Positions 43,501 through 46,500 of a stretch of DNA of 64,000 nt are shown piece by piece. Position 1 is the stretch's first letter; the number at the start of each line of letters is the position of its first letter. Position numbers: made by a program. Source of the DNA: Okamejei kenojei (lineage: Eukaryota); NCBI GenBank assembly GCA_035221665.1, contig CM069162.1, positions 22,940,001 through 23,004,000 of the forward strand, in the 5' to 3' direction.

Positions 43501-46500
43501 TTTTCTCGAAAAGATCTCACGGCAATAATTTAAAGAAGAGCAAGGAAGTTCTCACTCGTGATTGAAGGAAGATTCATCTTTCAACCCAACAGCATAACTG
43601 TACATTAACTGTGTCTGTGTGACACAGTGCTGACCAAAATACCCCATCAACGTCAGTCCCACCTGTCTGCATTTGGCCCATATCCCTCTAAATCTGTCCT
43701 ACACATGTACCTGTCTAAATGGCTTTTAAATGTTGTTATTGCACCTGCCTCATGTGTCATTTTTCTGCATTACCCATACCTCTTGATTCTATAATATCTA
43801 AACAGCTATCTTCACTATACTCAGTGACAAAGCTGCTACAACCCTGCAGGGGAAAGTAGTCTCAACATTCACGACCTACTTGTCATTCTTCTTATCTCTG
43901 ATCTGAACAGTGCCGCCTTCCACCTCAGTCAAGTGAAGCATCATCCCTGAAACTACCCTGTCGGGCCCTGTATATTTTCGTGAGATCCTATCTTAGGCTT
44001 GTAAACTTGAGAACCTGTACCAGTCAGTGTCACCAAGGCTCCATTTTTATTGAGCAAGACTTCTTTACCCATGTACTCAAATTTTGCAATAAAGGCCAGC
44101 GTATCATTTGCCTTCCAAATTGCCTGCAGTCGCTACCTGTTAAACATTACTGATTTGTGTGCTAGGACAGCCGGTTCCCAACATCGTTCAGGCTCTAGAC
44201 TGTGCTGTAGACTTTCAAGAAAGAGGCAGCGCAGTGGCGCAGCGGCAGAGCTGCTACCTTACAGCACCAGAGATCCCGATTCGATCCTGACTATGCGTGC
44301 TGTTTTTGTGGAGTCTGTATGTTCTCCCTGTGGCCGCGTGGGTTTTCTCCGGGTGATCCGGTTTCCTCCAACACTCCAAAGACGAACAGGTTTGTAGGTT
44401 AATTGGCTCCGGTGAAATTGCAAATTGATATGAGGATAGTGTTAGTGTACGGAGTGATCCCTGGTCAGCGTGGGCTCAGTAGGCTGCACTGTCTGTTTCC
44501 AAGCTGGATCGCTAAAGTCTACAGTTGCAGCGCACGGTCTCGCCATTTAAGAATTACTCCACCTTGCCTATATTTATCTACCAACATGGATGACCTGATA
44601 TTTTCCCTTTTTTTATTCCTTCTGCCTTAACCTTTCCCAAATCACATACCTTATCTCCACCTCCCTTTTTTTTTGTAATTTCAAAGCAGACTTTTTTCAA
44701 GTAAATAATCCATACAATACATGAACTGTGCAAAAGGATTCAGCCGACATTCCCGGAGGCCCTACAAACATTCAATACTGCTTTCCCAAATCGCAGTTTC
44801 CCCCCCACACCCTTGCCACTCATGTGGCCCATTGGCGTGAATTCCCTTCCCTTATTTTGAGGGGCGTCTCCACCACACCCTGCCCCTCATGTCCAGCAGC
44901 GGAAGGACCCTAGACTGTCGCCCTCCCCCACAGAGCCTTGGCGTTGGCTAGCACCGAGCTTCAGCACGTACTCCTGCAGTCTGAACCTCGCTGCATGCTT
45001 GCGGTCAACACGGCCTATATGTACTGCATTCAATTCCCTCATCCAAATCAGTGATATAGATTGTGAACAGCTGGGACCCTGCAGCACTTACTAATCACAC
45101 CCTTCCAATCTGAAGCTGACCTGCTTATTTACGCGCTGCCTTTAATTTGCACACGCATAGGACTCCACAGTCAGGTACTTTCATTTTGTTCGTAGACAAA
45201 AGCGCTGGAGAAACTCAGCGGGTGCAGCAGCATCTATGGAGTGAAGGAAATAGGCAACGTTTCAGGCCGAAATCCGGAAATAGGCAGCGTTTCGGCCCGA
45301 AACGTGGCCTATTTCCTTCGCTCCATCGATGCTGCTGCACCCGCTGAGTTTCTCCAGCACTTTTGTCTACCTTAAATCTTCCAGCATCTGCAGTTCCTTC
45401 TTATACACTTTCATTTTGTTCAATGACTTCTCGTGCAGCACCTCACACAAGGCCATCTGAAAAGTTACACAAGAACCGGTTTCCTCTTTTTGTTCTGCTA
45501 GTTACAACCACAGAAACCTCTAACATTTGTCAAACATGATTTCCCTTTCAAGAACGTATGTTCTCTCGGCCCAATCCTATTATTATTTTCCAAGTGCTCT
45601 TTCATCACTGGTTTAATAATAGATTCCAACCTTTTCCCTCCTCTACGGGTCTATTGTGCTTTGTTTTTCTCTCTTTCTCCTTTCTTAAGTGGCGAGGTTA
45701 CATTTTCTTCCTTCTATTCTGTGGGAACTGCTTTGGAAGCGATGGAATTTGGGTAGGTGTCAAAAATACATCCATAACCTCCACTGCCACTCTCAGGGAC
45801 ATTGGGCCCATGGACCGAAAACGTCTGCATTGTGTTACTTTACCCACCGAGCAGAGATGAGGCCTTTAAATGTCTTTCAAAATGGGGACACAAGAGACTG
45901 CAGGAGTATTGAGCGACTTGCTGAAGGAACTCAGTGGGTTAGGCAGCATTTGGGGAGGGAGTGAACAGGCGATGTTTTGAGTCATGACCCTTCTTCAGAC
46001 CCCTCTTTCAAATGGCACAGCCTGTGGAACCAAGTAAAGAGAGCGATAAGTTGCCAGACTTGCTGAGACTAGTTGTCGGGTAGGCTAGTCCAGGAAACTG
46101 GATTTTCAGGCTTTTTGGCTTTGATGAGTGAAACTGTTAAGTCTACGCAGGGTGCAGCTAGCTATATTATTTTTATATTTCAAAACAGGCAGCATAAAAC
46201 TGAACTTTAGACGACGACCTCAGGAACCTGTGGCATTTACAAGAATGTCACAGTAGCTTTAGAGTTTGGAACCTCACAGTGGAGCGGTCACAGTGAGCCC
46301 AGTATTGACATCCCTTTCCTCAAGATCTTTGTGCATTTCTGCCATTTTCTATCATGACCTGAGACTGGATACAGCACTGCTTAGTGTCCTTACAAACCAG
46401 CTTGATTATATATTTGTATGAACGAACTGCGGATGCTGGTTTAAACCAAAGATAGACACAAAATGCCTCTACTTCCTGAGAAGATTACGGAGAGTCGGTC

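What the first reader, a model, noticed from the sequence alone, without database searches (positions are those of the whole stretch)
45177..45421. Head-to-head Penelope palindromes insert as single units with 14-17 bp target-site duplications
Seen: about ten loci have an antisense arm followed by a sense arm, always meeting at the hammerhead (5') ends. Four have a duplication bracketing the whole palindrome: 15 bp perfect here, 17 bp at 10691/10863, 14 bp at 19558/19767 and 15 bp at 35757/35981. Arm lengths and centre junctions differ at each locus. Established: PLE insertions often carry an inverted 5' pLTR copy. Inference: each palindrome is made during one integration event (both nicked strands priming on RNA 3' ends, or a template switch) rather than copied from a fixed master MITE, giving 150-230 bp fold-back elements that form long RNA hairpins on either strand.
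Basis: partly seen in the sequence, partly recalled or inferred. Interest (0 to 1): 0.7.

Follow-up and report, generated by a model that had tools for sequence, protein, structure and literature searches.

The report
Head-to-head Penelope retrotransposon insertion units
These short DNA palindromes are real one-step insertions of a Penelope-like retrotransposon in a skate-like fish genome, but they show an insertion architecture that is already described for this transposon class.

Summary
A ~165-nt repeat occurs 43 times in the 64-kb window. It is the 3' non-coding end (pLTR part, with a minimal hammerhead motif) of a Penelope-like element (PLE). Twenty copies form 10 head-to-head units; none are tail-to-tail.

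Seven units sit between a 9-17 bp direct repeat (control P 0.003-0.023 each), and an eighth is weak (P 0.084). For unit 35772-35980, two paralogous uninterrupted "empty" sites in the window carry the duplicated target only once. Every centre junction is different, so these units were made at integration and not copied from a master palindrome.

In 9 units (a tenth probable), one arm ends at consensus ~155-163 and the other at ~117-126. This is the known PLE "tail" of 30-40 bp, equal to two reverse-transcription start sites.

Inverted pLTRs, a one-sided tail and a duplication around the whole insert are already in print (PMC3846280, PMC8557442, PMC11167929).

- **Verdict:** a real, ordinary PLE architecture in a new host lineage.
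- **Open:** the mechanism. I favour priming on both nicked strands, but cDNA snap-back is not excluded.

The parts
45177..45191 (.). Left copy of the 15-bp target-site duplication of the focal unit (U5)
   Evidence: Perfect 15/15 match to 45407-45421. Control P about 0.003.
45192..45272 (-). U5 antisense arm. Its outer end is at the proximal ('short', tail-less) end point, about consensus 120-121. Its inner end lies in hammerhead helix II.
   Evidence: nhmmer alignment; inverted repeat I1; column table.
45273..45296 (-). U5 centre: 3-nt filler, then a second antisense copy of about 20 nt (45276-45295) already present in the arm. This is part of a 30-nt x 1.9 tandem at 45246-45302.
   Evidence: the repeat finder D1 and I2; TRF. 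The centre string is unique in the window.
45297..45406 (+). U5 sense arm. It starts in hammerhead helix II/GAAAC and ends at the distal ('long', tail-bearing) end point, about consensus 160-162.
45407..45421 (.). Right copy of the 15-bp target-site duplication of U5
5332..5574 (.). U1: unit 5341-5565 (225 bp; antisense arm with tail, sense arm without) between 9/9 repeats at 5332-5340 and 5566-5574
   Evidence: (P 0.016).
10691..10879 (.). U2: unit 10708-10862 (antisense arm with tail starting at consensus 85; sense arm consensus about 36-123) between 16/17 repeats
   Evidence: (the exact 14-mer has P 0.004).
19558..19780 (.). U3: unit 19572-19766 (antisense arm without tail starting at consensus 70; sense arm with tail) between 13/14 repeats
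   Evidence: (P 0.007).
35757..35995 (.). U4: unit 35772-35980 (antisense arm with tail, sense arm without) between 13/15 repeats. It is inserted into another repeat.
   Evidence: P 0.016; paralogous uninterrupted sites.
28840..28960 (+). Paralogous uninterrupted copy of the host repeat hit by U4. It carries the U4 target sequence once.
   Evidence: alignment A2. A second such copy lies at 11670-11780 on the minus strand.
38800..39245 (.). U10: unit 38813-39232 (420 bp; a long antisense arm without tail that runs through the C-rich region upstream of the hammerhead, and a sense arm with tail starting at about consensus 46) between 12/13 repeats
   Evidence: (P 0.008).
55828..56046 (.). U6: unit 55838-56036 (antisense arm without tail, 2-nt filler, sense arm with tail) between weak 9/10 repeats
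   Evidence: (P 0.084).
56784..57006 (.). U7: unit 56796-56994 between 11/12 repeats. The antisense arm ends at the proximal point. The sense arm probably ends at the distal point after an internal deletion.
   Evidence: P 0.023 in the wider search. The boundary was re-read after seeing the sequence.
57585..57755 (.). U8: head-to-head unit without a detectable duplication (antisense arm consensus 33-127; sense arm consensus 80-156)
   Evidence: The arms share 3 derived variants.
59040..59263 (.). U9: old, diverged head-to-head unit (arms 64% identical) with a 6-nt filler at the centre and no detectable duplication
30592..31106 (+). The only copy still joined to coding sequence: ORF tail at 30646-30873 (end of a GIY-YIG endonuclease domain), C-rich spacer, hammerhead motif and tail. 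A 46-nt inverted copy of its own 5' end lies at 30592-30637.
   Evidence: homologues carry RVT_1 and GIY-YIG; inverted repeat 96% complementary, 6-nt spacer.

Best explanation
The repeat is the 3'-terminal non-coding part (pLTR region with a minimal hammerhead motif) of a Penelope-like retrotransposon. The host is a cartilaginous fish; the nearest protein hits are from skates.

Each palindrome is one insertion unit. It holds two copies of that region joined head to head, and the whole unit lies inside a single staggered target cut, which leaves a 9-17 bp duplication.

The two outer ends are the two reverse-transcription start points of the element, about 38 nt apart (the PLE 'tail'). Each unit has one arm of each kind.

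Most likely mechanism:
1. The element's RT/GIY-YIG protein nicks both target strands.
2. Each 3'-OH primes cDNA on element RNA, one at the distal and one at the proximal start point.
3. Both cDNAs run to, or stop near, the 5' end of a short RNA that begins just upstream of the hammerhead.
4. The two cDNA 3' ends are joined by a template switch or short microhomology. This gives a different junction each time, sometimes with filler or a re-copied stretch.

Shown here: the anatomy, the duplications, the uninterrupted paralogous site, the two end classes and the differing junctions.

Taken from the literature: extension of both strands, and two start sites, in an Anolis PLE in vitro.

Inferred: that both strands prime in vivo, that both may use one RNA, and where the RNA 5' end lies.
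For: Identity of the repeat:
- Copy 30644-31106 follows a 76-aa ORF tail. Its homologues (84% identity to a Leucoraja erinacea protein) carry RVT_1 and GIY-YIG.
- CUGAAGA, a 4-bp helix II, GAAA and an ACGU-C stretch are the majority letters at consensus 30-57.

Non-random pairing:
- 10 head-to-head among 11 adjacent pairs (P 8e-6).
- About 1.8 head-to-head pairs are expected by chance.

Single event:
- Duplications around the whole unit in 7 of 10 units at P <= 0.023 each, plus one at P 0.084. For 6 of 10 at P <= 0.016, the binomial P is 3e-9.
- The U4 target sequence occurs once in two paralogous uninterrupted copies.
- The arms share derived variants beyond the background in 4 of 9 tight pairs.

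Not a master copy: 10 of 10 centre junctions differ, and the focal centre has 1 match in the window.

Two end classes:
- Last aligned columns cluster at 117-126 and 151-163.
- The duplications abut both classes directly.
- 9 of 10 units are clearly one-of-each (P 0.001-0.006).
- Both classes also occur in single copies (6 short, 17 long of 23). One short-ended and one long-ended single copy have their own 11- and 12-bp duplications. Both classes are therefore independent start points.

Literature:
- The Anolis PLE protein cleaves and extends both strands and starts at two adjacent internal sites that delimit the tail. Hammerhead cleavage is not needed (PMC11167929, main text read).
- An inverted pLTR 37 bp shorter than the direct ones, a tail on one inverted pLTR and a duplication around the whole insert are described (PMC3846280, passages).

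Template switching: the focal centre has a 3-nt filler plus a re-copied ~20 nt.

In U2, U8 and U10 each arm holds element sequence that the other lacks. As they now stand, neither arm can be a copy of the other.
Against: - 23 of 33 units are single-armed, with no hidden short partner arm. Priming on both strands is therefore not obligatory.
- U8 and U9 have no duplication.
- In 3 TSD-bearing pairs the arms share 0-1 derived variants, and their divergence from consensus is unequal (15 vs 9, 7 vs 4 and 14 vs 6 changed columns). This fits a consensus-like source, but it gives no positive support.
- The 'neither arm is a subset' argument can be undone by later deletions at palindrome centres.
- The 46-nt inverted repeat at 30592-30689 has an outer end at neither start point. 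It looks like a snap-back of a single cDNA.
- The in vitro study saw no difference in start-site use between the two strands. That neither predicts nor forbids the one-of-each rule.
- The sample is one 64-kb window. The end-class rule was noticed in the data and then tested on the same data.
- Three 'long' single copies are doubtfully classified (37429, 46999, 59910).
Confidence: 0.55

Rival explanations
1. Self-priming (snap-back) of one cDNA. A single target strand primes at the distal start point. The cDNA reaches the RNA 5' region, folds back on a short palindrome (for example hammerhead helix II) and copies itself. The copy is then joined to the other side of the target break. This is still one integration event.
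For: - Arkhipova et al. proposed self-priming for PLEs from the palindromes at inverted junctions (PMC3846280, passage).
- In 5 units the two inner ends lie within 10 columns of each other (U1, U4, U5, U7, U9).
- The focal centre is a 20-nt hairpin with a 1-nt loop.
- The 46-nt inverted repeat at 30592-30689 has an outer end at no start point.
- Helix II and the ACGT stretch are themselves self-complementary.
Against: - The tail-less arm always stops within a few nt of a point that also ends 6 single copies, one of which has its own duplication. A DNA-templated copy has no evident reason to stop there.
- In U2, U8 and U10 neither arm is contained in the other, although later central deletions could produce this.
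- A 1-nt loop is not a plausible intramolecular primer.
Confidence: 0.25
2. Two separate insertions. A second copy homes into, or next to, the 5' end of a resident copy in the opposite orientation, because the element's endonuclease recognises its own sequence.
For: - PLE endonucleases cut within or near their own pLTR or tail (PMC11167929).
- U8 and U9 lack a duplication.
- Arm divergence is unequal in U1 and U6.
- Nested PLE insertions are reported (PMC3846280).
Against: - In 7-8 units the duplication brackets the whole unit, and no third copy of the target or duplication of element sequence lies at the centre.
- The paralogous uninterrupted sites for U4.
- Shared derived variants in 4 pairs.
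- 10 of 11 adjacent pairs are head-to-head and 0 are tail-to-tail.
- The one-of-each rule for the ends.
Confidence: 0.08
3. Master-copy amplification. One or a few fold-back elements (MITE-like, or a transcribed hairpin RNA) were copied as palindromes.
For: None in this window, beyond the general abundance of the units. Individual units could still have daughters elsewhere in the genome, which I could not search.
Against: - All 10 centre junctions, arm extents and unit lengths differ (155-420 bp).
- The focal centre string has a single match.
- Duplication length varies from 9 to 17 bp.
- Arms of one unit share a subfamily, while different units belong to different subfamilies.
Confidence: 0.04
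4. Post-insertion rearrangement. Single copies were turned into palindromes by replication template switching or fold-back repair at the hammerhead hairpin.
For: Palindromic motifs at the 5' end could promote such events. Palindromes are known to be unstable (general knowledge).
Against: - Such events would duplicate the flank in inverted orientation, or leave no direct duplication around the unit.
- They would not give a second arm that ends at a specific start point, nor arms with element sequence absent from the partner.
Confidence: 0.03

Closest known systems
Canonical Penelope insert with an inverted pLTR (e.g. Pen2a_Av of Adineta vaga; PMC3846280, and the general scheme in PMC8557442)
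   Same: - An inverted copy lies head-to-head at the 5' side.
- The junction is palindromic.
- A tail of about 31-40 bp sits on only one end; the inverted pLTR is 37 bp shorter there and about 38 nt shorter here.
- One short duplication of variable length surrounds the whole insert, verified there by an empty allelic site and here by paralogous sites.
   Different: - Here the units hold no ORF and no direct pLTR pair. They are only two truncated 3'-terminal pieces, 155-420 bp in all.
- They make up 10 of 33 units of the family in the window.
- The host is a cartilaginous fish.
- I found no paper describing such minimal units.
PAc, the Poseidon-type PLE of Anolis carolinensis, in vitro (PMC11167929)
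   Same: - Two adjacent internal reverse-transcription start sites whose spacing equals the tail.
- Both target strands are cut and extended.
- Hammerhead cleavage does not define insert ends. Here only 1 of 43 copies starts near the predicted cleavage point.
   Different: - That work found no strand difference in start-site use and did not describe inverted products.
- Here each two-armed genomic unit uses one start point of each kind.
LINE-1 twin priming (5' inversion).
   Same: One integration event, with the second nicked strand acting as a second primer. The result is an inverted 5' segment, one duplication around the whole insert and microhomology at the junction.
   Different: - In L1 the inverted segment comes from a more 5' part of the same RNA, so no long palindrome forms.
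- Here the two arms cover the same part of the element, and both begin at defined start points.
Animal non-LTR retrozymes and dispersed minimal hammerheads (PMC4209133; bioRxiv 10.64898/2026.07.22.740005)
   Same: Short non-coding PLE-derived sequences with a minimal hammerhead that lacks helix III. They are far more numerous than full elements.
   Different: - Retrozymes are tandem arrays thought to move through circular RNA.
- Here there is 1 direct tandem pair against 10 inverted units. The copies have duplications and defined 3' start points, as expected for target-primed insertions.
MITEs and fold-back DNA transposons
   Same: Small size, terminal inverted symmetry, hairpin-forming transcripts and flanking duplications.
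   Different: - No fixed termini shared by both ends; the two ends differ by the tail.
- Variable duplication length.
- A different internal junction in each unit.
- The arms are retroelement 3' ends.

Membership tests
Penelope-like element (endonuclease-containing PLE) | Repeat physically linked to an ORF with a reverse transcriptase and a GIY-YIG endonuclease | tested here: met
   ORF tail at 30646-30873 lies directly upstream of copy 30958-31106. Of 11 homologues, the best (84% identity) has RVT_1 (E 5.6e-19) and a weak GIY-YIG match, and another has GIY-YIG at E 2.5e-4. [quoted passage not shown] Only the last 76 aa are present in the window. No RT or endonuclease ORF was found among 45 ORFs of 110 aa or more.
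Penelope-like element (endonuclease-containing PLE) | Inverted 5'-truncated copy adjacent head-to-head to another copy | tested here: met
   10 units and 0 tail-to-tail.
Penelope-like element (endonuclease-containing PLE) | 30-40 bp 'tail' present at only one end of the insert | tested here: met
   End classes at consensus 117-126 and 151-163. One of each in 9 of 10 units, with the tenth probable.
Penelope-like element (endonuclease-containing PLE) | Target-site duplication of variable length around the whole insert | tested here: met
   9-17 bp in 7 of 10 units at P <= 0.023, one weak and two without. Paralogous uninterrupted sites for U4.
Penelope-like element (endonuclease-containing PLE) | Partial direct tandems that form pLTRs | tested here: inconclusive
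   Only one direct pair (11782-11930 and 11974-12091). There is no full-length element in the window.
Hammerhead ribozyme (minimal PLE type) | Conserved core boxes CUGANGA and GAAA, with helix II between them and a cleavable UH site | tested here: met
   These are the majority letters at consensus 30-36, 38-49, 50-53 and 56-57. They are intact together in only 3 of 19 copies that cover the motif. Neither arm of the focal unit keeps the CUGANGA box.
Hammerhead ribozyme (minimal PLE type) | Match to a curated hammerhead covariance model | tested here: not met
   No Rfam hammerhead family at gathering score on the window, or at E <= 10 on two sub-regions. This is expected for motifs that lack helix III (PMC4209133, PMC6155905).
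Hammerhead ribozyme (minimal PLE type) | Compensatory changes in helices; self-cleavage | not testable with these tools
   Helix II shows only G-U wobbles and broken pairs, with no double changes. Helix I would be about 2 bp. Cleavage needs a bench assay.
MITE / fold-back element amplified from a master copy | Same internal structure and termini in all copies; fixed duplication length | tested here: not met
   10 different junctions, unit lengths of 155-420 bp and duplications of 9-17 bp. This was tested in the window only.
L1-type twin-priming inversion | Inverted segment derived from RNA upstream of the direct segment (no long overlap) | tested here: not met
   The arms overlap over 39-95 aligned columns of the same element region.
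Non-LTR retrozyme | Head-to-tail tandem arrays of hammerhead-bearing units | tested here: not met
   One direct pair only. TRF finds no array of the unit.

The most novel reading that the evidence does not exclude
The PLE 'tail' and the PLE inverted repeat are two faces of one concerted reaction. The dimeric RT/endonuclease nicks both target strands, and both 3' ends prime on the same RNA molecule at two adjacent start points about 38 nt apart. The trailing polymerase displaces the leading cDNA. The two cDNAs are then joined at their 3' ends. Every completed two-armed insertion therefore carries the tail on exactly one arm. Single copies would be reactions in which only one strand primed, or in which the second arm was lost.
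Probability: 0.25. Interest if true: 0.65.

Novelty: new member of a known kind. Interest (0 to 1): 0.35.

Why it matters
PLEs are the least understood class of retrotransposons, and how they make tandem or inverted structures and the 'tail' is still called undefined in the literature (PMC8557442).

These minimal units are natural end products stripped to the essentials: two start points, one junction and one duplication. A genome holding thousands of them would give a large, easily scored data set on three things:
- the coupling of start sites between the two strands
- junction microhomology
- the spacing of the target cuts

That would turn the one-of-each rule seen here (9-10 of 10 units) into a real test between priming on both strands and self-priming.

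In practice, such units form very stable hairpins. They are likely to be mis-annotated as MITEs or microRNA precursors; one scored as mir-551 below threshold. They may also disturb assembly and feed small-RNA pathways.

As a phenomenon, this is not new.

Tried and rejected
- **Rfam:** at gathering score on the whole window and at E <= 10 on 30900-31150 and 56700-57300 there is no hammerhead family. The only hits are sub-threshold lncRNA or miRNA look-alikes caused by the hairpin.
- **Ranking arm-to-arm identity against all other copies**: uninformative. Old arms are each closer to young consensus-like copies than to each other. I replaced this test with shared derived variants.
- **Exact-match duplication search**: it missed the imperfect duplications. 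I replaced it with a mismatch-tolerant score with controls.
- **Hidden short partner arms next to the 23 single copies:** the upstream inverted match is no better than the downstream control (mean score 6.1 vs 6.3). The idea that every insertion is two-armed is rejected.
- **Pfam scan of 45 ORFs of 110 aa or more**: only LINE-type fragments and no PLE RT or endonuclease. The 76-aa ORF tail alone has no Pfam hit.
- **tRNA scan:** 0 genes, so there is no sign of a tRNA-derived SINE head.
- **Hammerhead cleavage as the source of the 5' ends:** rejected. Only 1 of 43 copies starts near consensus 58-60, whereas 23 of 43 start at consensus 21-38.
- **Pairwise mapping to the consensus:** I used the stored nhmmer alignments and direct reads instead.
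- **Collections:** Genome-wide copies, orthologous empty sites and other species stayed unchecked.
- **Paper supplements were closed.** The supplementary figures of PMC11167929 (genomic tail ends) and PMC4209133 (minimal hammerhead families in vertebrates) may bear on the end points and on whether this family is already listed.
- **Structure and complex prediction** were not relevant and were not used.
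Full report
**1. What is at the coordinates**

The stretch 45177-45421 holds a perfect 15-bp direct repeat (45177-45191 and 45407-45421). It surrounds an inverted repeat with arms 45192-45272 and 45290-45370 (81 nt, 94% complementary). The centre is not a simple turn:
- A 30-nt stretch is present 1.9 times (45246-45302).
- The antisense arm is therefore followed by a 3-nt filler and a second antisense copy of about 20 nt.
- That copy forms a 20-nt hairpin with a 1-nt loop against the start of the sense arm.

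As RNA, either strand of 45192-45406 folds into one long hairpin. The energies are -151.1 and -153.0 kcal/mol, z = -20.1 and -20.5, and 0 of 200 shuffles fold as well.

**2. What the repeat is**

A BLAST search with the focal sense arm found 35 matches in the window. I aligned 12 solo-looking copies of those 35 and built an HMM. nhmmer then found 43 copies at E <= 0.01. At least one older fragment (57443-57497) escapes it.

Evidence that this is a Penelope-like element (PLE):
- One copy (30958-31106) continues upstream through a C-rich spacer into an open frame that ends at 30873.
- The last 76 residues of that frame find 11 longer proteins at E <= 0.001. The best is 84% identical and is named for Leucoraja erinacea. 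Others are named for Rhinoraja longicauda and Chiloscyllium punctatum.
- The hits carry RVT_1 and weak GIY-YIG matches. They align over the GIY...YIG block with two cysteines between the motifs.
- The repeat is therefore the 3' non-coding end of a PLE, and the window very probably comes from a skate-like cartilaginous fish.

The hammerhead motif:
- In the column table the majority letters at consensus 30-57 spell CUGAAGA, a 4-bp helix II with a 4-nt loop, GAAA and a self-complementary ACGU followed by C.
- This is the layout of the 'minimal' PLE hammerhead that lacks helix III and is thought to act as a dimer (PMC4209133, passages; PMC6155905, passages).
- Rfam reports no hammerhead family at gathering score or at E <= 10.
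- Only 3 of 19 copies that cover the motif keep the core and helix II intact, and there are no compensatory changes.
- The hammerhead label therefore rests on motif reading. The inserted copies are decaying.
- The focal unit keeps no complete motif in either arm.

**3. The palindromes as a class**

- Nine tight antisense-then-sense pairs stand out in the nhmmer list.
- A tenth (38813-39232) has a long antisense arm that runs through the C-rich region before meeting the sense arm.
- There is one direct tandem pair and no tail-to-tail pair.
- Given 43 copies in 64 kb, about 1.8 head-to-head neighbours within 250 bp are expected. Ten of 11 adjacent pairs being head-to-head has P = 8e-6.
- The remaining 23 copies are truly single. 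The 60 nt upstream of each is no more complementary to the copy than the 60 nt downstream (mean best score 6.1 vs 6.3).
- Two-armed units are therefore 10 of 33 units.

**4. Duplications**

I used a mismatch-tolerant score (match +1, mismatch -2, repeat ends within 14 nt of the arm ends) and 1500 random placements as a control. Results:

| Unit | Match | Score | Control P |
|---|---|---|---|
| U5 (focal) | 15/15 | 15 | 0.003 |
| U2 | 16/17 (exact 14-mer scored) | 14 | 0.004 |
| U3 | 13/14 | 11 | 0.007 |
| U10 | 12/13 | 10 | 0.008 |
| U1 | 9/9 | 9 | 0.016 |
| U4 | 13/15 | 9 | 0.016 |
| U6 | 9/10 | 7 | 0.084 |

- A wider search (within 30 nt; 300 controls) on the three units left gave U7 an 11/12 repeat (score 9, P 0.023) and nothing for U8 and U9.
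- Six of 10 units at P <= 0.016 has a binomial P of 3e-9.
- The seven left-hand copies are 33% G+C against 46% for the window. This agrees weakly with the AT-rich target preference reported for PLEs.

*The strongest single result concerns U4.* It lies inside another repeat, and two other copies of that repeat in the window (28840-28960 and 11670-11780, reverse strand) run uninterrupted through the site. They carry the duplicated stretch once. This is the paralogous equivalent of an empty site. It shows that everything between the two copies of the stretch, both arms included, lies within one staggered cut.

**5. Do both arms come from one source?**

- In 4 of 9 tight pairs (U4, U5, U7, U8) the arms share more identical non-consensus states than 97.9-99.9% of 846 non-partner pairs.
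- Two pairs are borderline (0.06 and 0.076).
- Three pairs (U1, U3, U6) share 0-1 such states. This fits a consensus-like source but gives no positive support.
- Arm-to-arm identity is 64-92%, so the units are of different ages. The focal unit is the youngest.

**6. Junctions and ends**

Inner end points, in consensus columns (antisense / sense):

| Unit | Antisense arm | Sense arm |
|---|---|---|
| U1 | about 26 | 29 |
| U2 | 85 | 36 |
| U3 | 70 | 27 |
| U4 | 28 | 37 |
| U5 | 40, plus a re-copied 66-46 | 46 |
| U6 | 53 | 35 |
| U7 | 30 | 27 |
| U8 | 33 | 80 |
| U9 | 27 | 22 |
| U10 | far upstream | 46 |

- No two junctions are alike. Fillers of 2, 3 and 6 nt occur.
- The focal centre string has one match in the window at up to 3 mismatches. 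A master-copy origin is therefore excluded for these units.

*The outer ends are constrained.* The last aligned columns fall into two groups, 117-126 and 151-163, and the duplications abut both groups directly.
- In 9 of 10 units one arm belongs to each group. U7 probably does too once its boundary is set by its duplication.
- If the ends were chosen independently, with the single-copy rate (17 long of 23) or the pooled rate (27 of 43), 9 or more of 10 mixed units has P = 0.0012 or 0.006.
- Caveats: the rule was seen first and then tested on the same data. Three 'long' single copies are doubtful (37429-37521, 46999-47150, 59910-60067). U9's short end is at column 109.
- Both end types also occur in single copies. 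Some have their own duplications: the long-ended 42238-42549 (12 bp) and the short-ended 5171-5233 (11 bp). Both are therefore genuine 3' start points.

*The 5' ends also cluster.* Of 43 copies, 23 begin at columns 21-38, 8 run further upstream, 7 begin at 40-63 and 5 begin at 70 or beyond. Only one begins near the predicted ribozyme cleavage point (after column 57). Self-cleavage therefore does not set the ends. Columns 25-31 read as an initiator-like, nearly self-complementary heptamer. That transcripts start there is my inference only.

**7. Comparison with what is known**

- **PMC3846280** (passages read) describes the 'typical' Penelope insert:
  - It has two direct pLTRs plus an adjacent inverted pLTR, and the whole lies between a 9-bp duplication.
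  - A 31-bp tail sits on one of the inverted pLTRs, and the inverted pLTR is 37 bp shorter.
  - The inverted junctions are palindromic, head-to-head is the commonest arrangement, and an empty allelic site proves one such insertion.
  - The authors proposed self-priming.
- **PMC11167929** (whole main text read) reports four things about the Anolis PLE protein:
  - It cuts and extends both target strands.
  - It starts at two adjacent internal sites whose spacing is the tail.
  - Hammerhead cleavage is dispensable.
  - The two strands did not differ in start site.
- **bioRxiv 10.64898/2026.07.22.740005** (passages) treats tandem retrozymes as PLE derivatives and says nothing about inverted units.

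My searches found no paper on minimal two-armed PLE units or on PLEs of this kind in cartilaginous fishes. Subscription papers and repeat libraries were out of reach.

The finding is therefore a correct reading of a known architecture in a new host and in a minimal form.

**8. Mechanism**

That each duplication-bearing unit is one integration event is well supported (I put it at about 0.85). How the second arm arises is open.

I favour priming on both nicked strands, followed by a template switch between the two cDNA 3' ends, for these reasons:
- Both outer ends coincide with independent start points.
- In U2, U8 and U10 each arm contains element sequence that the other lacks.
- Extension of both strands is shown in vitro.
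- The focal centre, with its filler and re-copied stretch, looks like repeated template switching.

The one-of-each rule suggests the bolder idea that both strands prime on one RNA at the two neighbouring sites.

Points against, or left open:
- Most units are single-armed.
- Later central deletions could mimic the non-containment of the arms.
- The 46-nt inverted repeat at the 5' end of the long copy (30592-30637 against 30644-30689, 96%) ends at no start point. It is best read as a snap-back.
- Both routes may therefore operate.

**9. Verdict**

The phenomenon is a member of a known kind, and interest is moderate to low. The value lies in a cheap genome-wide test of how PLEs build their inverted repeats and tail.

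Noticed in passing
window 30592-30689: A 46-nt inverted repeat (96% complementary, 6-nt spacer) sits at the 5' end of the only PLE copy that keeps coding sequence. The inverted piece copies the first 46 nt of the truncated ORF fragment, and its outer end is at neither reverse-transcription start point. It looks like a snap-back at the cDNA 3' end. No convincing flanking duplication was seen.
   Followed up: partly
window 40802-40979: A run of 178 N (assembly gap or masked stretch). It was left untouched. ORFs listed across it are artefacts.
   Followed up: no
window 17281-17738: Minisatellite of a 37-bp unit, 12.4 copies, 88% matches.
   Followed up: no
window 35685-36130, 28840-28960, 11670-11780, 15959-16082, 52911-53033: An unrelated interspersed repeat family that hosts unit U4. 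Its other copies served as uninterrupted reference sites. Further pieces match the right flank of U4 at 92%. The family was not identified.
   Followed up: partly
window 3468-3884 (-) and 48250-48660 (-): Fragments of non-LTR retrotransposon coding sequence: Exo_endo_phos_2 (E 5e-6, just below the Pfam cut-off) and an ALKBH8_N-type domain (E 8e-15).
   Followed up: no
window 42238-42549 (-): A single 312-nt PLE copy with a 12-bp flanking duplication. It extends through a (G)n/(GA)-rich tract (16-nt unit x 2.6 at 42384-42424) into about 130 nt that differ from the ORF tail at 30646-30873. This suggests a second PLE subfamily with a different upstream region.
   Followed up: partly
window 56825-56928: The U7 hairpin scores as a mir-551 precursor on both strands (29 and 28 bits against a gathering score of 51). 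This shows how such units can be mistaken for microRNA genes.
   Followed up: no
window 46999-47060: One PLE copy ends at about consensus 110 against a (GACTTT)-like microsatellite and an AT-rich tail that seems to belong to another element. The nhmmer end coordinate for this copy is unreliable.
   Followed up: no
window 9540-9568 and 60010-60060: A GGGCC-AAAGGGCCTGTTTCC-like motif flanks two PLE copies. It probably belongs to the 3' end of another abundant repeat family.
   Followed up: no
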